Below, one piece after another: positions 50,501 through 57,457 of a stretch of DNA of 62,962 bases. This DNA is from an uncultured Planctomycetales bacterium (GTDB taxonomy: Bacteria; Omnitrophota; Gorgyraeia; Zapsychrales; Aceulaceae), in assembly GCA_964648665.1 (NCBI GenBank), contig CAZYOA010000010.1, forward strand, positions 1 through 62,962, in the 5' to 3' direction. Position numbers and translations under genes: made by a program. Numbering within the stretch: position 1 is the stretch's first letter; each line of letters opens with the position of its first letter. The notes beneath the pieces were generated by a model that was not told where the DNA came from, did not search any database, and saw only the letters and a program-made list of their open reading frames with translations.

Positions 50501-52666
50501 ATTTATATAACCCAAAATAGGAAATTGTATGTTTCGTCGCTAGAGGGCGATCAGCTGGTGCCATTGCCAGGGTGGCCAAAAGTGTACCAGACTGCCCTTG
50601 TATTTGGGAATACCGTTCCTTCTGCAGGTCCGAGCATTGCGGATGTGGATGGAGACGGCTACGCTGATATTGTAGTGATTGCGAATGCTGGGTCTGATAA
50701 CCCGTATGCCTCATTAAAGGCTTTTGATAGGTATGGAAATCTACTCAACGGGTGGCCTAAATATGTTCAGCCTTTTGACTTGATATATTCGCAGCCAACT
50801 ATTACAGATATGGATAATGATGGGCAGGTTGATGTTTTAGTGGGGAATCTTTTTGGGCAAGTGTTAGCGTATGGGTTGGAGTACCAGTTTAACCCTGAGG
50901 CACAAGAATGGCCAATGTTTCAGAAGAATCTCAAGCATTCAGGTGTGCATGGCGAGGAACCAGTGGTTCCGAATTATGTACCGACTGCATATGCAGGGCC
51001 TGACATTACTATTGATGAAAATATAGAGGTTGTGTTAGTTGGATCAGGATATGATCCAGATGGATTTATTGTTAATTATGCATGGGAACAAATCGATGGT
51101 CCAGAAGTGACACTTGAAAATGCGAATGAAGCGACGGCATCGTTTAGTGCTCCTGCTGTGGAGGATACGACATCTATTACATTTAAGCTTACTGTCACAG
51201 ATAATGACGATGCAACAGCATCTGATGTAGTTTTTGTGACTGTCACTAATGTAAATATGGCGCCTGTAGCTGATGCTGGTGAAGACGTAGCAGCGAATGA
51301 ACTTTCAGTAGTAACTTTAGCTGGATCTGGATATGATCCAGATGGATTCATTGTTAGTTATGCATGGAAACAAATTGACGGACCAGATGTTGTTCTTGAG
51401 AATTCGAATGAAGCAACGGTATCGTTTAGTGCTCCTGCTGTGAGTGAGCTGACAGAGTTGACATTTAAACTTACTGTTACAGATGATGACGATGTGACAG
51501 CAAGCGATGAAGTCGTTGTGATTGTCAATAATATAAATGTGGTGCCTGTAGCCAACGCAGGAGTAGATCAACAAGAGGCTTTAACATTCCCTAATATATC
51601 AGCAAGCATTATTCTTGACGGTACAGCTTCAAGCGATCCAGATGGAACTATTGAAAGTTACTTATGGACCGAAGGTGATGATCAGTTAGGTACAGGGGTA
51701 ACTCCAGCTGTAGACCTTACTGTAGGCGTTCATATAATTACATTAATAGTCACTGATAACGATGGTGCAAGTGATATTGATGATGTCGAAATAATAATTA
51801 ATCAAGCTCCAATTGCAAACGCCGGAGTAGATCAACAAGAGGCTTTAACATTCCCTAATATATCAGCAAGCATTATTCTTGACGGCACAGCTTCAAGCGA
51901 TCCAGATGGAACTATTGAAAGTTACGTATGGACCGAAGGTGATGATCAATTAGGTACAGGGGTAACTCCAACGGTAGACCTTGCTGAAGGTGTTCATACA
52001 ATTACATTAACAGTTACTGATGATGATGGTGCAATTGGCACTGATGATGTCGAAATAATAATTAATCCAGCAGGTAATCAAGTTCCAATAGCTGATGCAG
52101 GAGAAGATCAAAAAGGCTATGCATGGTATCCAATGACGTTAGATGCGACGCAGTCGTATGATCCTGATAGCGGGCCAGAACTTCTTACGTATGCATGGCA
52201 ACAGATTGATGGTCCGGTGGAGGTTATGTTTGTTCTAGATCAAGAAGGTATTATTTCTTTTGAAGCACCGTTAGTACATGAAACGACAAATTTCATATTT
52301 AGGGTTACGGTGAGTGATGGGATTGATAGCAGTGAAGACACTGTCCAGGTTTTTGTTGAACCGAATACGTTGCCACAAAAAGAACAAAGCAGGATGTTGT
52401 TTTCTGTTTATGAAAATGAAAAGTTCACTTATGATTTAACTGAAAATATTTTTGATCGAGAGACAACGCCGCTGCTAGGCTATACATGGGAGCAAGTGTC
52501 TGGTGTCCCTGTGACTGAGGGAGGAGTGCACGATGGCCAAACAATGGTTTTTGCTACACCATCAGTTGCGTCGACGCAGAATTGCATGTTTCGCGTGTTG
52601 GTCCATGATGGATCAAAAGATATTTCTTATCATATTGCCATAAGAGTATTGAATGTTGATCAATGA
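47510..52666 (+). CDS. Secreted S8 subtilase with FG-GAP/VCBS repeats and PKD-like domains
   Basis: N-terminal signal peptide and propeptide. Catalytic triad VAVIDSG, HGHGTHCAG, SGTSMACPHVAG; oxyanion AAGN. Multiple DxDGDG repeats. C-terminal P.A.AG.D...DPDG.I..Y.W repeats. Confidence 0.95.
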   Translation: MRNFFIVSVVIICVFLNLSIPQYVFAVSDDVRRTDVVSKGADPLVDAEYGVEVFTQPVDDFLLPNDYRKDRIIIRFKEGSGLGAVAADLVNEKMKFETVTGDWALDSINEMYGVVAIKPLITSELFSLQTKKTTRFSSDIAQALEIRRNAHIATSIVGMNARYPDRARYADSAKQIAIATKLSNTFIVTFDADKDNLQEIKAAYMQDSAVVEAELIQAVYVNFEPTDPYYSSSGSWGQDFSDMYGLRPDFLHCGDPVEDEGAWAQSKGEGIVVAVIDSGVDYNHPDLVDNMWQDAEGHYGYDFANGDDNPIDDHGHGTHCAGTIAAVENGFGVIGVAPSAKIMAIKGLKASGRGYTDVLSAAIMYAVENGADILSNSWGGGGNSGLLTEAFDYAHASGCVSVAAAGNSARDAAYFTPAGIQSVITVAASDSNHERASFSNIGTKIDVSAPGVDILSLRAAGTDMYGTGTHIVNDDYYYASGTSMACPHVAGVLAVIKSANPDYSNEELRSALRASATDLGAIGFDTQFGSGLANADAALDIVSPIAANIFSIEQIDNQTIEVRGVVYGDSFSSYFLEYAESLEGPWMTADNIVPGEKQGTLNPDGNISYPVLGTVDPEGLSGFVYVRLTGYDQSNDSYQDFINTIIIEEQKSGWPVNVFDEEQGISAYPIFSSPMVANIDNSADGSEEVIVNAIGGLFVYDANGTILSGWPKNYLWPQGSGGFSTPAIADLDGDGDMEIIAMGYDGSGSVGDLTIFGTNEPVAGLHIWHHDGSRYNDQWPQTLENHLPGLLRLTYLGYSSPSVGDIDADGAQEIVIAVRYGAGMGGETRCALLAFEQDGSLVVDSQNTTQWPRFLSVNNILSGRLLECSPTPLLIDLNHDGMLEIVQGVNFRNQSVIPREYYSEIKVFDAYGNTPENTQWPWISDTVTLGNKNLVAGDVNGDGDIEIIAQTSSGAVGYPTTKIFSCEGDEIASIGAWATLSANFSLADMNDDGTPEIIYITQNRKLYVSSLEGDQLVPLPGWPKVYQTALVFGNTVPSAGPSIADVDGDGYADIVVIANAGSDNPYASLKAFDRYGNLLNGWPKYVQPFDLIYSQPTITDMDNDGQVDVLVGNLFGQVLAYGLEYQFNPEAQEWPMFQKNLKHSGVHGEEPVVPNYVPTAYAGPDITIDENIEVVLVGSGYDPDGFIVNYAWEQIDGPEVTLENANEATASFSAPAVEDTTSITFKLTVTDNDDATASDVVFVTVTNVNMAPVADAGEDVAANELSVVTLAGSGYDPDGFIVSYAWKQIDGPDVVLENSNEATVSFSAPAVSELTELTFKLTVTDDDDVTASDEVVVIVNNINVVPVANAGVDQQEALTFPNISASIILDGTASSDPDGTIESYLWTEGDDQLGTGVTPAVDLTVGVHIITLIVTDNDGASDIDDVEIIINQAPIANAGVDQQEALTFPNISASIILDGTASSDPDGTIESYVWTEGDDQLGTGVTPTVDLAEGVHTITLTVTDDDGAIGTDDVEIIINPAGNQVPIADAGEDQKGYAWYPMTLDATQSYDPDSGPELLTYAWQQIDGPVEVMFVLDQEGIISFEAPLVHETTNFIFRVTVSDGIDSSEDTVQVFVEPNTLPQKEQSRMLFSVYENEKFTYDLTENIFDRETTPLLGYTWEQVSGVPVTEGGVHDGQTMVFATPSVASTQNCMFRVLVHDGSKDISYHIAIRVLNVDQ
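50990..51532 (+). repeat. Tandem pair of PKD-like units, 282-bp period
   Basis: GSGYDPDGFIV.YAW.QIDGP...LENxNEAT.SFSAPAV occurs twice; GGATC anchors at 51041 and 51323. Confidence 0.8.
51551..52067 (+). repeat. Near-identical tandem pair of PKD units, 264-bp period
   Basis: ANAGVDQQEALTFPNISASIILDGTASSDPDGTIESY...DDVEIIIN at 51551-51803 and 51815-52067, with long identical DNA stretches. Confidence 0.9.
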
Positions 52667-52786
52667 TGAATCGTAAGTAATCAAGGGCAGCAGGTCCCAA
52701 CCTAAGATGGTGCTTGGAGAATATATGAAGTAAAGTGGAAGAATGGCAAGAGGTATGGGAATGGAAATATCAAAGCAAGCTTTATC

Positions 52787-52820
52787 AAGGTTGTAGATTC
52801 GAATCCTGTCCCTGCAGCCA
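52787..52820 (+). other. Decayed tRNA 3' fragment (tRNA-fMet-like), possible att-site relic
   Basis: AAGGTTGTAGATTCGAATCCTGTCCCTGCAGCCA: T-arm with a TTCGAAT loop, acceptor 3' strand and CCA. No 5' half upstream. Confidence 0.6.
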
Positions 52821-52984
52821 ATGTAATAGCGAGAGAGTCAATGATTCAGGTTATTGGCTCTTTTTGTTTATGGTGATAAAATAATAGATGCGAATGCGAT
52901 GTCGCCGGTATTAAATAAAAACTTTCCGCATCTATTCTTCTTTTCTATTATCTTTCCGATAATTATTTAAGCAACCCCTGTTTC

Positions 52985-53410
52985 TTATAAACAACTTTCT
53001 TCATATTTCTTCATTAATATTTTATATTCTTGTCGTAATTTTTCGTATTCAACTTTCGAAGCTTCATAACGCTTTCTTTCTGATTCATACCATGCTTTAT
53101 TAGCTTTATTTTCCTTTAACTGTTTATTATACTGTTTCTCATATTCTTCATATCGCCTATTATATGTTTCTAGCTGTTTATTGTATTGTTCCTTGTACTC
53201 TTTAGATTGCTTATTATATGTTTTAAGTCGTTCTTTATATTTAGAATCTTGCTCTTCTAAAATTTTGAGAATTTTGTCAATCTTTTGGTCTTGTTTTTCT
53301 ATTTTTTTGATTAACAATGAATTATCTGATGAAGCAGTGCTAGCAAAAGCTAGCGAGGGAATAAGTAAGCCGGCTACTGCTGCGAAAAGTATGATTTTAT
53401 TTTTAAACAT
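52985..53410 (-). CDS. Small secreted coiled-coil protein (141 aa, start reassigned)
   Basis: AAGGAGG RBS precedes the ATG at 53410 (MFKNKIILFAAVAGLLIPSLAFA is a signal peptide). The mature part has YKEQYNKQL/YEKQYNKQL repeats. Confidence 0.75.
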   Translation of the reverse strand: MFKNKIILFAAVAGLLIPSLAFASTASSDNSLLIKKIEKQDQKIDKILKILEEQDSKYKERLKTYNKQSKEYKEQYNKQLETYNRRYEEYEKQYNKQLKENKANKAWYESERKRYEASKVEYEKLRQEYKILMKKYEESCL

Positions 53411-53413
53411 TTC

Positions 53414-53449
53414 AACCTCCTTTTTAATTATTCTATAACATGAATCGCC
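53414..53449 (-). repeat. 36-bp upstream element (promoter + RBS), copy 1 of 2
   Basis: AACCTCCTTTTTAATTATTCTATAACAT is identical at 53414-53441 and 53905-53932. The minus strand reads ATGTTATAGAATAATTAAAAAGGAGGTT. Confidence 0.85.
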
Positions 53450-53538
53450 TAGGTTGCCCTGCGACAAGCAATTGCATCTTTTGGCGGTTAGAAGGACTTT
53501 TAATTTCTTAATGATGTACCAGATTTGTGCCAAGTCCC

Positions 53539-53901
53539 TTATTTTTCAGACGAGCCATACAAACCTTTACTATGATTAATAAGTAAATTGTTTTGGTCCA
53601 TCAAGAATACTGTTGTACATAAGATAGTAAACCCTAAAATCCAACAGAAAAGCGTGACAACAAGCATCTTTTCGACTTTTCTTGATATAATTTTATATTC
53701 TGGATTTTTTTGAGTCAACTCTCGGACTATTCTAAGCTTTTCTTTTAGAGAATAAAAAATCCAAAAAGGTGAATCTTCTTCTTTGCATACGAAAATGAAT
53801 TTTTGAAGATTATAGTATAAAAAAACTATAAAGGGCACGACAAAAACTAAAATTGCATAAGGAATAACAAATGGTGTTGGGTCTAGCGGGAATATCTCCA
53901 T
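53539..53901 (-). CDS. Small two-TM membrane protein, unknown function (120 aa, start reassigned)
   Basis: AAGGAGG RBS before the ATG at 53901 (MEIFPLD...). Two hydrophobic helices flank a basic loop. Confidence 0.75.
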   Translation of the reverse strand: MEIFPLDPTPFVIPYAILVFVVPFIVFLYYNLQKFIFVCKEEDSPFWIFYSLKEKLRIVRELTQKNPEYKIISRKVEKMLVVTLFCWILGFTILCTTVFLMDQNNLLINHSKGLYGSSEK

Positions 53902-53904
53902 CGT

Positions 53905-53940
53905 AACCTCCTTTTTAATTATTCTATAACATAAATCGTC
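53905..53940 (-). repeat. 36-bp upstream element (promoter + RBS), copy 2 of 2
   Basis: Matches 53414-53449 (28 bp identical core). Confidence 0.85.
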
Positions 53941-54277
53941 ACAGGTAAAGAAAATCCCCACTATTACCAAAAGACAATGAATAATTAAGAAATTATGAGA
54001 ATAAACAAAGGTACCCTGTAATTAACAAGATTTCTTTGCGTAGAATAAGCTAATATTTCAACAATAAACATACGGTCGTTTATTTAGTTTAAGCATCAGC
54101 GTCTAGGAACGCTTCTAAGCGTCTAGTTGTTTAAGATGTAGAAAGATATGTATGTGTCAACAGCGTGCAGCAGGACGTAACCTCAAGCGAATGAAGGCTA
54201 GTCTTTAGTGTGTTTGTCGAGGAGGATAGAGAAATAGTACATATAAAAGTAAGGGTTCCCATTGGCTCAGAGGGCTT

Positions 54278-54296
54278 CCCACCCATCCCCTGCCCC
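54278..54296 (-). other. Canonical G-quadruplex motif
   Basis: The minus strand reads GGGG-CA-GGGG-AT-GGG-T-GGG in an otherwise very AT-rich region. Confidence 0.7.
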
Positions 54297-54310
54297 TATG
54301 TATATTATAA

Positions 54311-54363
54311 ACCAACACACTGGATTAATAACATTTTTAAGGATTCAAGGTTAACCATGTTAC
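54311..54363 (-). repeat. ~54-bp intergenic array repeat, copy 1 of 4
   Basis: ACCAACACACTGGATTAATAACATTTTTAAGGATTCAAGGTTAACCATGTTAC, followed on the minus strand by TATAAT (54304-54309). Confidence 0.85.
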
Positions 54364-54735
54364 TTATAAACTCTTATTCTTAAAGCACTCGTAGCCTTTT
54401 ACAGGATTTCTACAATAATCGGAAATCCTTTCCTGTTCCATAAGAATATGCCCACGATGCACATTATTCAATCGTATGCAATTACAAACAACAAGCAGAA
54501 TTGTTATTGTCCAATAAATAAATATGAACTGAAAGTTTTTAGTTCTTTTGAAGGATACAATAATGCCAAAAAAAACTAGCGAACTACTGATAATCGCAAG
54601 CATGGAATAATTCTTTATTAATGTGTCTAAAATGTAACTACCAGAGCGTGGCGAATAAGCCATGCTTAAATAAAATGTTATCAATCCTGTTAAAATACAA
54701 AAAATAGCAATAAAGCTAGTGAGGAATTTCTTCAT
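54364..54735 (-). CDS. Small three-TM membrane protein, unknown function (probably leaderless)
   Basis: 123 aa with three hydrophobic helices and a C-terminal Cys pair. The ATG lies 6 nt after a TGaTATAAT box and there is no RBS. Confidence 0.75.
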   Translation of the reverse strand: MKKFLTSFIAIFCILTGLITFYLSMAYSPRSGSYILDTLIKNYSMLAIISSSLVFFGIIVSFKRTKNFQFIFIYWTITILLVVCNCIRLNNVHRGHILMEQERISDYCRNPVKGYECFKNKSL

Positions 54736-54748
54736 ATTTTTATTATAT

Positions 54749-54801
54749 CACCACACGCTAAATTATATATACTTTTAGAAAAGGGATGGTAACTAGTTTA
54801 C
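54749..54801 (-). repeat. ~54-bp intergenic array repeat, copy 2 of 4 (most diverged)
   Basis: CACCACACGCTAAATTATATATACTTTTAGAAAAGGGATGGTAACTAGTTTAC. It overlaps the stop of 54798..55184. Confidence 0.7.
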
Positions 54802-55184
54802 TTTGTTGCTTTGAGACGGTTATCTTTCTCAAACTCTATAATTTTAAGAATTAGATAGAGTATTCCTCCAGGGAGAAGAGCAAAGACAAAAATAATACCT
54901 TCCGTCTGAACTACTTCGTGTTGAGCAAGGTTATTCGAACATCCTATGATAACAGGAATGGCGTATCCCACTAAAGCAGCTTCTAGGGTTCGAAACCGAT
55001 ATGCTACGAAGAATGTTATTGCGATGAGAATGAGTGGAGGTATTAATATTTTTAGTAAGACTATTCCAATTCCGTCATAGATAGGAACGCTCATTTCTCT
55101 TAATAGTGGCAAAAGTTGGAGCGTAAAGATGAATGTGGAAATAAATACAAAGAGCATCTTTAGAAGCTTCTTGAAAATATTCAT
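54798..55184 (-). CDS. Small four-TM membrane protein, unknown function
   Basis: 128 aa, four hydrophobic segments, CCTAGGAGGAAA RBS. Confidence 0.75.
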   Translation of the reverse strand: MNIFKKLLKMLFVFISTFIFTLQLLPLLREMSVPIYDGIGIVLLKILIPPLILIAITFFVAYRFRTLEAALVGYAIPVIIGCSNNLAQHEVVQTEGIIFVFALLPGGILYLILKIIEFEKDNRLKATK

Positions 55185-55213
55185 TATTTCCTCCTAGGTT
55201 GCTTTTATTGTAT

Positions 55214-55267
55214 CACCCACACGCTGAATTAATAACATTTTTAAGAAACTAGAGGCAACTAGTTTAC
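55214..55267 (-). repeat. ~54-bp intergenic array repeat, copy 3 of 4
   Basis: CACCCACACGCTGAATTAATAACATTTTTAAGAAACTAGAGGCAACTAGTTTAC, followed on the minus strand by TGaTACAAT. Confidence 0.85.
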
Positions 55268-55298
55268 CCGCTCTCTAAATTATAATAACTTTATGAGA

Positions 55299-55532
55299 TT
55301 AGTCTTTTTTATCAGAAGCTTTGAACATCTCAGGGAAAACTTTCATAATAAACACTGTGATTATAAAAACTAAAAAGAAATTCGAAAAAATGAGTGTACC
55401 ACTTCTCCAGTTTGGGATTACAATGGCGAAAATGATTTTTTTAGTGAGGTGCATTAATCCTCCAATATTCAGCAGATACATTGCAAATATTGTCCACTCC
55501 TGCGTTTTCCATCTTTTCATTGGACTGGTCAT
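55299..55532 (-). CDS. Small two-TM membrane protein, unknown function
   Basis: 77 aa, with the same CCTAGGAGGAAA RBS as the neighbouring gene. Confidence 0.65.
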   Translation of the reverse strand: MTSPMKRWKTQEWTIFAMYLLNIGGLMHLTKKIIFAIVIPNWRSGTLIFSNFFLVFIITVFIMKVFPEMFKASDKKD

Positions 55533-55580
55533 GTTTCCTCCTAGGCGATGGTTAGTAATATTTTATTTTACATCAGTTTT

Positions 55581-55635
55581 AACCCACACGCTGAACTAAT
55601 AACATTTTTAAGGATTTAGAGGTTAACCATGTTAC
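55581..55635 (-). repeat. ~54-bp intergenic array repeat, copy 4 of 4
   Basis: AACCCACACGCTGAACTAATAACATTTTTAAGGATTTAGAGGTTAACCATGTTAC, nearly identical to copy 1. Confidence 0.85.
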
Positions 55636-55766
55636 TTGCCAGGAAAGGAAAAGCGACAGATGGAATAATTATTTTCCAAGATGAATTCATTATAAATTTT
55701 CCTTTAAAATCATTATAAGCTAAAGTTGTGATTAAGAAAACAATGCATTGTAAATAATTGTATTAT

Positions 55767-57293
55767 TTACCACATTCGATCTAGTGATCGATATTGAATA
55801 GCTTCAGAAATATGTTCTGGCAGGATTTCTTTTTGTTGATCTAAGTCGGCAATGGTTCGCGCTACTTTTAAGATTTTATTATGTGCTCGAGCAGATAGGC
55901 TCAATTCATCGATGGCAACTTTAAGCAGATCTTGTGATTCCTGGGAAACACAGCAGAAAGCTTTGATTTGACGATTTTGCATTTGAGCGTTGGAAAATAC
56001 TTTTGTATCAACAAATCTTTTGTTTTGAATTTCTCGCGCGGCAACAGTTCTTTTCTTGATATCAGCTGACGATTCTCTGTGCTTGTCAGAAAATAAATCT
56101 TGTGATTTTAAGGATGGAACTTCGAGATGAATATCTATGCGGTCTAAAAGAGGGCCTGAAATCTTAGATAGATATTTTTGAATTTTTTGCGGTGTGCAAT
56201 GACATTCTTTCTTGGGATCCGTATACCAGCCACACGGGCATGGGTTCATCGCAGAAACAAGCATGAATTTAGATGGAAATTTCACAGTTTTATGGGCTCT
56301 AGCGATATGAACGCAATGATCTTCAAGGGGTTGTCTGAGTGCTTCAAGGACATTTTGATTAAATTCAGGCAGTTCGTCTAGAAATAGAATGCCGTTATGT
56401 GCAAGGCTGACTTCGCCGGGCCTGGGAATAGTCCCTCCACCGACTAAAGCAGCATCACTTGCGGTGTGATGAGGACAGCGAAAAGGGCGCTTGCTAATAT
56501 TTTTTAGATTTGCATCGATTAATCCAGATGCTGAGTGAATTTGGGCGGTTTCTAAAGCTTCGGCGATAGTTAAATTTGGTAATATTGTTGCAAGTCTTTT
56601 TGCAAGCATCGTTTTTCCGCTTCCAGGTGGACCGATTAGAAGAACGTTGTGTCCACCTGCAGCAGCGACTTCTAATCCTCTTTTAACATGCGATTGGCCT
56701 TTGACTTCTTGAAAATCGATATCATATGAGCTGGATTGATTGAATATTTCTTCGATGTTTATTTTAAAAGGTTTTATAGAGCTTGGATCTTGAAGAAAAT
56801 GAACAGTTTGCTTTAATGATTGAACAGGAAAAACATCTAAATTATTGGCAAGAGCTACTTCATGAGCATTCTTTTCTGGGACAATAATACCGTCAAATTT
56901 CTTCTTGGATGCACGCATAGCAATAGAGAATGCACCTTTGACAGGCTCAATCTCACCGCCTAAAGAAAGCTCGCCTAAGATAATATATTTTTTAAGATTT
57001 GATATTGTTATTGTTTGATTTGAATTTAAGATACCAAGGGCAATGGCTAGATCAAAGAAGGGACCTTCTTTTTTGATATCACCTGGAGATAGATTAACTG
57101 TTATTCTTTGAGCGGGAAACTTATAGCCGCTATTTTTTATGGCAGAACGAACGCGTTCTTTGCTTTCTTTAACAGCTGGATCTGGAAGCCCAACAATAAT
57201 AATGCAGGGAAGACCGCGAGAAATATCAACTTCAACTCTAATAAGGGTAGCTTCTAAGCCGGAAAGACCAAAACTGTAAATTTTTGAAAGCAT
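55767..57293 (-). CDS. comM: YifB/ComM Mg-chelatase-related AAA+ ATPase
   Basis: MLSKIYSFGLSG, GLPDPAVKESKERV, NLSPGDIKKEG, GELSLGG, GPPGSGKTMLA, RCPHHTAS, GEVSLAHNGILFLDELPEF, MNPCPCG, SGPLLDRID. The start was moved to MLSK at 57293. Confidence 0.93.
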   Translation of the reverse strand: MLSKIYSFGLSGLEATLIRVEVDISRGLPCIIIVGLPDPAVKESKERVRSAIKNSGYKFPAQRITVNLSPGDIKKEGPFFDLAIALGILNSNQTITISNLKKYIILGELSLGGEIEPVKGAFSIAMRASKKKFDGIIVPEKNAHEVALANNLDVFPVQSLKQTVHFLQDPSSIKPFKINIEEIFNQSSSYDIDFQEVKGQSHVKRGLEVAAAGGHNVLLIGPPGSGKTMLAKRLATILPNLTIAEALETAQIHSASGLIDANLKNISKRPFRCPHHTASDAALVGGGTIPRPGEVSLAHNGILFLDELPEFNQNVLEALRQPLEDHCVHIARAHKTVKFPSKFMLVSAMNPCPCGWYTDPKKECHCTPQKIQKYLSKISGPLLDRIDIHLEVPSLKSQDLFSDKHRESSADIKKRTVAAREIQNKRFVDTKVFSNAQMQNRQIKAFCCVSQESQDLLKVAIDELSLSARAHNKILKVARTIADLDQQKEILPEHISEAIQYRSLDRMW

Positions 57294-57330
57294 AAACCTA
57301 TACTTTGTTTGTGGGGACGCAAGCATAAAT

Positions 57331-57360
57331 AAGGTAGCATAAAATGAATCTCTTCGTCAA
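57331..57360 (-). promoter_or_regulatory. Putative sigma70 promoter for comM
   Basis: TTGACG-N18-TACCTT with an extended -10 TG. Confidence 0.45.
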
Positions 57361-57457
57361 GCCAAAAATAAGATCGGCAAGATTTGTTTTATTAATATTA
57401 TTACTAATAAAAATAATGTATAATAATTTATAATTTAAAGGTAAATGATAAAAGATC

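What the first reader, a model, noticed from the sequence alone, without database searches (positions are those of the whole stretch)
54304..55690. Cassette-like array: unrelated small membrane genes separated by a ~54-bp promoter-bearing repeat
Seen: four copies of the repeat; two begin at or overlap the upstream stop codon. The minus-strand core is TTAAAAATGTTATTA(A/G)T(T/C)CAG(C/T)GTGTGG, with a -10-like box at the 3' end. The 5' end has an inverted repeat in two variants, GTAAC-ATG-GTTAAC (copies 1, 4) and GTAAAC-TA-GTT(A/G)C (copies 2, 3). The intervening 77-128-aa proteins show no similarity to each other by eye. A 24-codon ORF with an RBS (55690-55616, MNSSWKIIIPSVAFPFLAS...) runs into copy 4 like a truncated cassette. 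No integrase is in the window. Inference: a non-integron gene-cassette array, possibly orphan immunity or anti-phage membrane proteins, shuffled by recombination at the repeat. It sits directly downstream of comM.
Basis: partly seen in the sequence, partly recalled or inferred. Interest (0 to 1): 0.72.

Follow-up and report, generated by a model that had tools for sequence, protein, structure and literature searches.

The report
Reused promoter module before orphan genes
Downstream of comM in an uncultivated Omnitrophota bacterium, unrelated small membrane-protein genes each carry a copy of the same ~62-base promoter-like sequence; this looks like promoter reuse, not a mobile gene-cassette system, and is only mildly unusual.

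Summary
Four copies of a ~62-nt repeat lie on the minus strand (67-83% pairwise identity; profile E 1e-15 to 1e-18; none expected by chance). They precede three unrelated small membrane ORFs (77, 128, 123 aa) and a non-coding G-rich element.

The cassette-shuffling interpretation did not hold up:
- The repeats do not fold as single strands and lack attC architecture. Genuine attC sites found here pass the same test.
- No integrase or other recombinase lies within the window or the next 10 kb.
- The locus is base-for-base identical in three independent assemblies.
- The 128- and 123-aa proteins have no homologue anywhere.
- Related Omnitrophota lack the array.

The repeat reads best as a sigma-70-type promoter module, with two possible registers. 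A fifth copy on a separate short contig, at similar depth, drives a paralogue of the G-rich element. That paralogue is conserved from the predicted transcription start.

A second 34-nt promoter/RBS repeat precedes the two further genes. One of these, the 120-aa protein, belongs to a ~25-member family. Elsewhere that family sits between canonical attC sites, so a cassette origin is plausible for that gene only.

Verdict: promoter reuse in a lineage-specific accessory gene cluster. No transcript data exist.

The parts
55572..55637 (-). Repeat copy 4, upstream of the 77-aa gene. It contains GTAACATGGTTAACC, an A-tract, TGTTATTAGT, CAGCGTGTGG and TAAAAC.
   Evidence: 61.8 bits
55205..55269 (-). 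Repeat copy 3, upstream of the 128-aa gene. It has an extended -10 TGATACAAT, then AGGAGG 6 nt before the ATG.
   Evidence: 58.1 bits
55267..55296 (-). Degenerate extra core (AAAGTTATTATAATTTAGAGAGCGG) abutting copy 3. It is a remnant of a further copy.
   Evidence: family D3, 76% to the c2 core; 5.1 bits, E 9.7; weak
54741..54803 (-). Repeat copy 2, the most diverged, upstream of the 123-aa gene. TGATATAAT ends 6 nt before the ATG, so the mRNA would be leaderless in that register.
   Evidence: 54.7 bits
54300..54365 (-). Repeat copy 1. No ORF follows it; it is followed by the G-rich element.
   Evidence: 62.6 bits
55616..55690 (-). 24-codon ORF between comM and copy 4. Its stop lies inside copy 4. 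It resembles a signal peptide. Its coding status is doubtful.
   Evidence: codon score not best in frame; 50% over 14 aa to the N-terminus of the 141-aa protein; not significant at DNA level
55299..55532 (-). 77-aa small membrane protein (one clear hydrophobic segment, possibly two TM). It has an AGGAGG RBS.
   Evidence: singleton cluster; no Pfam, PADLOC or NCBIfam hit
54798..55184 (-). 128-aa membrane protein, hydropathy suggesting about 3-4 TM. It is an ORFan.
   Evidence: only itself among 5.8e9 proteins
54364..54735 (-). 123-aa membrane protein with about 3 TM and a Cys-containing C-terminal tail. It is an ORFan.
   Evidence: only itself in 1.84e9 representatives; the other hit is a repeat artefact
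54246..54297 (-). G-rich element that starts at the predicted transcription start of copy 1. It contains the only canonical G-quadruplex motif in the window (GGGGCAGGGGATGGGTGGG, 54296-54278). A paralogue follows a fifth repeat copy on another contig.
   Evidence: loose ends TACATAGGGGCAGGACGGGGGTGGGAAGGC; no Rfam hit; no stable fold
53940..54299 (-). Stretch of about 360 nt with no credible gene between copy 1 and the next promoter repeat. The 51-codon ORF here is not conserved in the paralogue.
53905..53938 (-). Second repeat family, copy a: CGATTTATGTTATAGAATAATTAAAAAGGAGGTT. It is a promoter-like box plus RBS in front of the 120-aa gene.
   Evidence: family D5, 97%; TTTACC-17-TAGAAT
53414..53447 (-). 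Second repeat family, copy b, in front of the 141-aa gene.
53539..53901 (-). 120-aa two-TM protein. It belongs to a conserved family of about 25 members (FPxDPTPFVIPYAI ... NNLLINHSKGxY). Elsewhere this family is carried as an integron cassette.
   Evidence: attC flanks in homologue loci; AlphaFold pLDDT 88, helical hairpin
52985..53410 (-). 141-aa protein with a signal or TM segment plus a coiled coil. It is the last gene of the cluster.
   Evidence: weak sub-threshold Rz-like spanin hits
55767..57326 (-). comM (Mg-chelatase-like AAA+ protein). It is intact and forms the upstream boundary of the cluster.
   Evidence: 67-69% identity to Omnitrophota MAGs

Best explanation
The ~62-nt repeat is a reused promoter module. 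Each of three unrelated, lineage-specific small membrane-protein genes has its own copy, and so do at least two copies of a G-rich non-coding element. All are therefore transcribed from near-identical sigma-70-type promoters and are probably co-regulated.

Two promoter registers fit the sequence:
- Register (i): the 5' palindrome supplies a -35-like hexamer (TTAACC, TTGCCT or TTACCA). After 17-18 nt comes TGT-TATTAA. Transcription would start in the conserved CAGCGTGTGG. This register explains why conservation runs from about -42 to +10.
- Register (ii): a weak -35 (TTATTA), then a 15-17-nt spacer holding the conserved CAGCGTGTGG as a possible operator. Then comes a -10 box: TGATACAAT (c3) and TGATATAAT (c2) are extended -10 boxes, c1 has a plain TATAAT and c4 a weak TAAAAC. 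The palindrome GTAAC-N3-GTTAAC would then be centred near -61, the position of a class I activator site.

A second 34-nt promoter/RBS module is reused in the same way before the last two genes.

The cluster is a fixed accessory region at a synteny break downstream of comM. It is not an actively shuffling cassette array.

Shown: the repeat, its extent, the lack of hairpin or attC structure, the lack of a recombinase, the invariance across assemblies, the ORFan status of the 128- and 123-aa proteins, and the fifth copy.

Inferred: promoter activity, which register is used, co-regulation, and how the module was copied.
For: The repeat is real and confined:
- Four copies, none expected by chance.
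- They occur only in this cluster within about 73 kb of contiguous genome.

Promoter features:
- Each copy ends 15-51 nt before a start codon. Two of these have an AGGAGG RBS.
- -10 boxes with TGn are present in c2 and c3.
- Housekeeping genes of the same genome use TTGACA-N17-TAnnnT promoters. The tRNA promoter includes TGTTATATT, so the sigma-70 consensus applies here.

The fifth copy:
- It lies on a 528-nt (run X1) or 457-nt (run X2) contig. Depth is similar to the main contig: 9.5 vs 13.4 in X1, 5.7 vs 5.8 in X2.
- It has the same order: palindrome, core, TATAAT, ATACATA, GGGGCAGG. Conservation therefore continues exactly through the predicted start of a non-coding element.

The genes are unrelated:
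- No protein similarity and no DNA similarity between coding sequences.
- They differ in length and in number of hydrophobic segments.
- The annotated frame has the best codon score of the six frames.
- ORFs of this length are improbable by chance.

Precedent: highly similar upstream sequences before non-paralogous genes are documented as 'putative mobile promoters' (PMC3575422).
Against: - There is no transcript evidence at all. No RNA run holds the locus.
- The generic promoter scan flags neither register of the main repeat. The -35 hexamers are weak and c4 lacks a good downstream -10.
- The 10-nt GC-rich core is more conserved than a promoter needs. This hints at another function, such as an operator or an RNA 5' end.
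- With only about 73 kb of the genome visible, I cannot say how many copies exist or what they precede.
- How a 62-nt segment gets copied without its gene is unknown.
Confidence: 0.6

Rival explanations
1. Recombination cassette array. The repeat is the recombination site of a site-specific system, either a decayed integron (CALIN) or an unknown one. That system inserts, excises and shuffles unrelated small genes.
For: - Unrelated, co-oriented small ORFs are separated by a repeat that abuts the upstream stop codon.
- Possible footprints of loss: a degenerate extra core (family D3) and a truncated 24-codon ORF.
- The neighbouring 120-aa gene is a bona fide integron-cassette family elsewhere.
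- The repeats contain GTAAC and GTTAT motifs that resemble the R''/R' cores of some of those attC sites.
- Cassettes can land outside integrons (SALIN/attG; bioRxiv 10.1101/2022.09.11.507474; CALIN in PMC4889954).
Against: - Single-strand folds are no better than shuffles (dG -1.6 to -5.6 kcal/mol, z -1.2 to +0.7).
- An architecture scan (R box, 4-6-nt spacer, 3-bp + bulge + 5-bp L box) recovers the control attC sites at full score. In the window it gives 26 sub-maximal hits against 30-45 in shuffles. None coincides with a repeat unit.
- The best-conserved part extends 17 nt past any GTT core. A cassette boundary should not do that.
- No tyrosine or serine recombinase lies in the window or the next 10 kb.
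- The sequence is identical in three assemblies.
- The 128- and 123-aa proteins have no homologues anywhere.
- A fifth copy precedes a non-coding element at another locus.
Confidence: 0.08
2. Diverged tandem paralogues. One promoter-plus-gene unit was duplicated in tandem several times. The coding parts then diverged beyond recognition. The promoters stayed similar through purifying selection or gene conversion.
For: - The layout is tandem and co-oriented, with 367-466-nt spacing.
- All products are small hydrophobic proteins.
- Codon signal is weak and GC1 is low in the 77- and 123-aa genes, as expected for fast-evolving genes.
Against: - There is no detectable protein or DNA similarity.
- Lengths differ (77, 128, 123 aa), as do the numbers of hydrophobic segments.
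- One copy drives a non-coding element, and another copy sits at a separate locus.
- 78-83% identity in the repeat alongside saturated coding sequence needs very strong constraint or conversion.
- No profile comparison is possible because the proteins have no homologues.
Confidence: 0.15
3. RNA-level element. The cluster is one operon transcribed from upstream. The repeat would act in the RNA as an intercistronic processing, stabilising or translational-control site, not as a promoter.
For: - No terminator-like sites lie between the genes.
- The repeat sits exactly in the intercistronic spaces and overlaps stop codons.
- The conserved CAGCGUGUGG could be a protein- or RNA-binding site.
Against: - There is no stable or conserved secondary structure and no Rfam match.
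- The distance to the start codon varies from 15 to 51 nt.
- c2 leaves no room for a ribosome-binding site.
- Copy 1 and the fifth copy precede no ORF.
Confidence: 0.1

Closest known systems
Putative mobile promoters / promoter reuse (Matus-Garcia, Nijveen and van Passel 2012; PMC3575422)
   Same: Highly similar upstream non-coding segments (50 nt or more, about 80% or more identity) lie in front of non-paralogous genes of one genome. They are not associated with a known mobile element. Their mode of copying is unknown.
   Different: - Here the copies are clustered in tandem in one accessory locus, plus at least one elsewhere, not dispersed.
- They reach to within 15-51 nt of the start codon and include the -10 region.
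- One target is non-coding.
- The host is an uncultivated Omnitrophota.
Integron cassette arrays, CALIN and SALIN (PMC4889954; bioRxiv 10.1101/2022.09.11.507474)
   Same: Both are arrays of small, unrelated, co-oriented ORFs of unknown function separated by a repeat at the 3' end of each ORF. One gene of the cluster (120 aa) has homologues that are true cassettes.
   Different: - The repeats lack attC structure: no R/L boxes, no extrahelical base, no stable hairpin.
- The only R''-to-R'-like span is about 40 nt, below the 62-98-nt control attC sites.
- There is no integrase.
- Each gene appears to have its own promoter.
- Content does not vary between samples.
Promoter-carrying miniature repeats (Correia/CREE, ERIC, REPIN), as listed in PMC3575422
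   Same: These are short intergenic repeats that can supply promoters to neighbouring genes.
   Different: - The repeat here has no terminal inverted repeats and no hairpin.
- I did not look for target-site duplications.
- Copy number is low.
- All copies are in one orientation relative to the downstream gene.
Tandem type I toxin-antitoxin repeats (ldr/rdl, ibs/sib in E. coli); from general knowledge, not tested against a database
   Same: Tandem intergenic units, each encoding a small hydrophobic protein with its own conserved promoter.
   Different: - In those systems the units are paralogous throughout, the toxins are under 60 aa, and each has an antisense RNA.
- Here the coding parts are unrelated and encode 77-128 aa.
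- No antisense promoter is evident.

Membership tests
Integron / CALIN cassette array | attC sites: R''(RYYYAAC)...R'(GTTRRRY) closing stem, unpaired spacers, L box with extrahelical base, stable single-strand hairpin | tested here: not met
   - Repeat folds: dG -1.6 to -5.6 kcal/mol, z -1.2 to +0.7.
- The architecture scan finds the control attC sites in L101-L109 at full L-box score (62-98 nt, dG -7 to -22).
- In the window there are 26 sub-maximal hits against 30-45 in shuffles, and none coincides with a repeat unit.
- The Pd-Pe spacer (53493-53410) has only a weak attC-like outline.
Integron / CALIN cassette array | Integron integrase (intI) adjacent (complete integron only; not required for CALIN) | tested here: not met
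   No PF00589-type protein is among the called genes of the window or the next 10 kb.
Integron / CALIN cassette array | Cassette content varies between strains; excised circles exist | tested here: not met
   Positions 52600-57400 are identical in three assemblies. Logan contigs show no joints at the repeats. Caveat: all come from one population that is about 99.9% identical.
Integron / CALIN cassette array | Cassette genes recur in other arrays or genomes | tested here: inconclusive
   - Met for the 120-aa gene only: about 25 homologues, at least five loci flanked by attC.
- Not met for the 128- and 123-aa genes.
- The 77-aa search was uninformative. Its own entry was not returned, although it is in the collection as a singleton.
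Putative mobile promoters (PMC3575422) | Upstream sequences 80% or more identical over 50 nt or more within one genome | tested here: met
   c4-c1: 53 of 64 (83%). c3-c2: 51 of 63 (81%). c4-c3: 78%. Pairs involving c2 with c1 or c4: 67%. The second family is 97% identical but only over 34 nt.
Putative mobile promoters (PMC3575422) | Adjacent coding sequences are not paralogous | tested here: met
   blastp gives nothing better than E 0.05. DNA local alignments are no better than shuffles.
Putative mobile promoters (PMC3575422) | Sequence actually acts as a promoter | not testable with these tools
   No RNA runs hold the locus. The only evidence is consensus matches.
MITE / Correia / REP-type mobile repeat | Terminal inverted repeats or a stable palindromic hairpin, many dispersed copies | tested here: not met
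   - No terminal inverted repeats and no hairpin.
- Only 4 copies in 73 kb, all in one cluster.
- No match in IMG/VR. The JGI metagenome scan gave only chance single matches.
Known RNA family (Rfam 15) | Covariance-model match at or near the gathering score | tested here: not met
   Only two tRNAs in the window. Nothing below E 3 in 53400-55800.
Known anti-phage defence proteins (PADLOC) / phage lysis proteins (PHROGs) | Profile match of the encoded proteins | tested here: not met
   - PADLOC gives none for the four membrane proteins.
- The only hits are weak and prone to coiled-coil or TM bias. The 141-aa protein hits an Rz-like spanin (E 6e-5; NCBIfam 22.7 bits against a cutoff of 92.75). 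The 77-aa protein hits a holin at E 0.023.

The most novel reading that the evidence does not exclude
The repeat is a portable 'promoter plus junction' unit. Through it this Omnitrophota lineage would assemble or replace unrelated small membrane genes by recombination at the repeats, using an unknown recombinase or homology-driven exchange after DNA uptake. Such a system could give rise to new genes behind duplicated promoters, and could exchange material with integron cassettes, as the 120-aa family hints. It would be a cassette system different from integrons.
Probability: 0.07. Interest if true: 0.75.

Novelty: new member of a known kind. Interest (0 to 1): 0.3.

Why it matters
- Promoter handle. 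If the promoter reading is right, this is a defined, testable promoter and possible operator for Omnitrophota. The phylum has no cultures and almost no regulatory knowledge.
- Evolutionary example. It is a compact case of promoter reuse in front of species-specific ORFan membrane genes. It could serve to study how young or newly acquired genes obtain expression signals.
- New cassette family. A by-product is a previously undescribed two-TM protein family (FPxDPTPFVIPYAI ... NNLLINHSKGxY) that travels as an integron cassette in diverse metagenomes.
- Limits. None of this changes current understanding, and the practical impact is small.

Tried and rejected
- attC or integron reading of the repeat: rejected on folding and architecture.
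- Known RNA family for the repeat or the G-rich element: none. No significant fold.
- Scans for the core in JGI metagenome contigs and IMG/VR gave only single chance matches with unrelated flanks. The negative result is weak. The JGI contig that carries this very locus was not returned, so that collection does not hold this organism.
- Related Omnitrophota loci anchored on comM have no repeat and no analogous array.
- RNA-seq support: no runs.
- Strain variation: none found.
- Paralogy of the small proteins: not detectable. Profile methods are impossible because the 128- and 123-aa proteins have no homologues.
- The 382-aa hit to the 123-aa protein is an internally repetitive sequence and was dismissed.
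- Phage lysis-cassette idea (holin plus spanin): only sub-threshold hits. I saw no endolysin among the annotated neighbours and no embedded lipoprotein ORF.
- 120-aa protein: the structure search against PDB gave nothing significant; the model is a helical hairpin. No plasmid match.
- 77-aa protein: no phage match.
- The 24-codon ORF as a remnant of the 141-aa gene's signal peptide: not significant at DNA level.
- I could not retrieve the 528-nt contig holding the fifth copy. Only 30-nt loose ends are visible.
- MAFFT alignment of the control attC sites was too poor in the centre to build a covariance model.
Full report
**Observation**

The minus strand between comM (55767-57326) and the convergent 1718-aa subtilase gene carries five small genes of 77, 128, 123, 120 and 141 aa. 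Four copies of a 61-66-nt repeat lie at 55637-55572 (c4), 55269-55205 (c3), 54803-54741 (c2) and 54365-54300 (c1).
- The stated core matches c3 and c4 exactly and c1 with one mismatch. c2 differs at 7 of 28 positions from the c3 core.
- Shuffles give no match.
- A sequence-only profile scores the copies at 54.7-62.6 bits. It finds nothing else of note in 317 kb of window and fetched loci.
- Pairwise identity of the unit is 67-83%.
- The two 5' 'variants' are one 14-15-nt element: against the 15-nt form in the fifth copy they differ by three substitutions.

One is a degenerate extra core abutting c3 (55296-55267). Another is a second repeat family, 34 nt at 97% identity, containing TAGAAT and AGGAGG, in front of the 120- and 141-aa genes (family D5). 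The third is that c1 is followed by about 360 nt with no credible gene.

**Organism and context**

ComM is 69% and 67% identical to two Candidatus Omnitrophota MAGs. In those MAGs the genes on the far side of comM (DUF212, LysM-YkuD) are syntenic. The DNA downstream of comM is different and has no array or repeat. The cluster therefore sits at a synteny break.

The same locus occurs in at least nine contigs from ENA, JGI and Logan assemblies. Over 52600-57400 it is identical in three independent assemblies. The flanks are about 99.9% identical. Gene order is therefore fixed, but within a single population.

**Is it a recombination cassette system?**

- Folding. As single-stranded DNA the repeats fold no better than shuffles (dG -1.6 to -5.6 kcal/mol, z -1.2 to +0.7).
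- Positive controls. Homologues of the 120-aa protein in other metagenomes are flanked by textbook attC sites. These have R''...TAAC, a 5-nt spacer, a 3-bp + 1 bulged base + 5-bp or longer L box, then the mirror image and GTTA...R'. They are 62-98 nt long, 44-62% GC, with dG -7 to -22.
- Architecture scan. A script encoding this layout recovers those sites at full score. In the window it gives 26 sub-maximal hits against 30-45 in shuffles, and none coincides with a repeat unit.
- Boundary. Conservation in the repeat continues 17 nt past any GTT core. A cassette boundary should not do this.
- Recombinase. None is encoded in the window or in 10 kb beyond it.
- Junctions. Logan contigs show no joints at the repeats.

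The defining features of integrons and CALINs (PMC4889954) were therefore tested and not met.

**The genes**

- The 128-aa protein matches only itself among 5.8 billion proteins.
- The 123-aa protein matches only itself among 1.84 billion representatives. Its other hit is a repeat artefact.
- The 77-aa protein is a singleton cluster. Its homology search was uninformative, because its own entry was not returned.
- There are no Pfam, NCBIfam or PADLOC assignments for the four membrane proteins.
- They share no similarity with each other at protein level or DNA level.
- They are still probably real genes. The annotated frame has the best codon score of the six frames, though lower than in housekeeping genes, and GC1 is low in the 77- and 123-aa genes. 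Two have AGGAGG at the right distance. Open frames of 123-128 codons have a chance probability of about 3e-4 each.
- The 141-aa protein is a signal or TM segment plus a coiled coil. It has only sub-threshold Rz-like spanin hits.

**The 120-aa protein**

This protein is different. It belongs to a family of about 25 members, with near-invariant N-terminal FPxDPTPFVIPYAI and C-terminal NNLLINHSKGxY motifs. The family is modelled with confidence as a two-helix membrane hairpin (pLDDT 88) with no structural relative. Its homologues are integron cassettes in at least five independent loci (L101/L103, L102, L104, L107, L108/L109). Others lie beside type I restriction-modification, Fic, KAP-NTPase or PIN-PhD toxin-antitoxin genes. 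The window copy has no canonical attC. The spacer after it keeps only a faint outline (TTCTAACCGCC...GGCGATTCATGTTATAGAA). An origin as a stray cassette (SALIN-type insertion; bioRxiv 10.1101/2022.09.11.507474) is plausible for this gene but unproven.

**What the repeat most likely is**

Housekeeping genes of this genome have clear TTGACA-N17-TAnnnT promoters. The tRNA promoter reads TTGACA-N17-TATATT, with TGT immediately before the -10. The repeat fits this grammar in two registers.
- Register (i): -35-like TTAACC, TTGCCT or TTACCA within the 5' palindrome, then 17-18 nt, then TGT-TATTAA. The start would lie in CAGCGTGTGG. This register matches the extent of conservation, about -42 to +10.
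- Register (ii): TTATTA, then 15-17 nt containing CAGCGTGTGG, then a -10 box. c3 (TGATACAAT) and c2 (TGATATAAT) have extended -10 boxes, c1 has a plain TATAAT and c4 has TAAAAC. This register gives stronger -10 boxes in three copies and a leaderless mRNA for the 123-aa gene. It also places the palindrome near -61.

The generic scan flags neither register, so this remains a sequence argument.

Independent support comes from Logan contigs of two marine metagenome runs. A separate 528-nt (X1) or 457-nt (X2) contig carries a fifth copy. Its depth is similar to the main contig: 9.5 against 13.4 in X1, and 5.7 against 5.8 in X2. It reads ...GGTAAACTAGTTAACCTCTAAATC, then a 39-nt core, then TACATAGGGGCAGGACGGGGGTGGGAAGGC. 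That is the repeat followed by a paralogue of the G-rich element that follows c1. Conservation resumes at the position where register (ii) predicts the transcript to begin. The paralogue lacks the ATG of the 51-codon ORF, so the element is probably non-coding.

The window copy of the element contains the only canonical G-quadruplex motif in 63 kb (0.17 expected). It folds worse than shuffles.

**Conclusion**

The best-supported reading is promoter reuse. One promoter module is copied in front of three unrelated ORFan membrane genes and at least two copies of a G-rich element. A second module is copied in front of two further genes. This corresponds to the 'putative mobile promoter' phenomenon (PMC3575422). 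Its sequence criteria are met by some pairs of copies, and the requirement for non-paralogous neighbours is met. Promoter activity itself could not be tested because no RNA data exist.

The rivals are a cassette recombination system, diverged tandem paralogues, and an RNA-level intercistronic element. All are less likely but not excluded. About 73 kb of one population's genome is all that could be examined.

Noticed in passing
window 242-44062 (+): This is a single ORF of 14,606 aa. The segments scanned show only isolated enzyme domains (GFO_IDH_MocA, HD, a weak radical SAM). Giant genes are already described in Omnitrophota (bioRxiv 10.1101/2023.11.21.568195; PMC10066038). It is followed by a 574-aa ORF without Pfam hits, a peptidase U32 gene and a 1718-aa subtilase/PKD protein.
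   Followed up: partly
window 54296-54278 (-): GGGGCAGGGGATGGGTGGG is the only canonical G-quadruplex motif on either strand of the 63-kb, 35% GC window (0.17 expected). It sits right at the predicted transcription start of repeat copy 1. It is partly conserved in a paralogous copy on another contig.
   Followed up: partly
window 53539-53901 (-); loci L101-L109: The 120-aa protein defines an undescribed two-TM family of about 25 members, with motifs FPxDPTPFVIPYAI and NNLLINHSKGxY. In other metagenomes it is carried between canonical attC sites, or lies next to type I R-M, Fic or PIN-PhD genes. It has no Pfam entry.
   Followed up: yes
window 53905-53938 and 53414-53447 (-): This is a second reused module, 34 nt at 97% identity (CGATTYATGTTATAGAATAATTAAAAAGGAGGTT), in front of two unrelated genes. 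A related copy (60 nt, 4 mismatches) lies on a separate 4173-nt contig in run X1 at about half the depth.
   Followed up: partly
window 51551-51807 and 51815-52071 (+): A tandem 257-nt repeat at about 92% identity, with a 264-nt period, lies inside the 1718-aa subtilase/PKD gene. It corresponds to duplicated PKD-type domains.
   Followed up: no
about 400 nt beyond window 62962 (L096, L097, L111, L112): Two independent assemblies break at the same point about 400 nt past tRNA-Ala(GGC)/tRNA-Leu(CAA). A third assembly continues into a biotin gene cluster. This suggests a repeat or strain-variable junction next to the tRNAs.
   Followed up: no
L098 1278-1316 (window 53939-53977): The Logan contig from SRR8862237 differs from the window at 7 positions within 39 nt, just upstream of the second promoter repeat, and is otherwise identical. 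This is probably an assembly switch into a paralogous copy at the repeat.
   Followed up: no
window 52985-53410 (-): The 141-aa signal/TM plus coiled-coil protein gives near-full-length but sub-threshold matches to Rz-like i-spanins (PHROG 89 E 6e-5; TIGR03495 E 1e-4). I saw no endolysin among the annotated neighbours and no o-spanin partner among the embedded ORFs. Compositional bias is the likely cause.
   Followed up: partly
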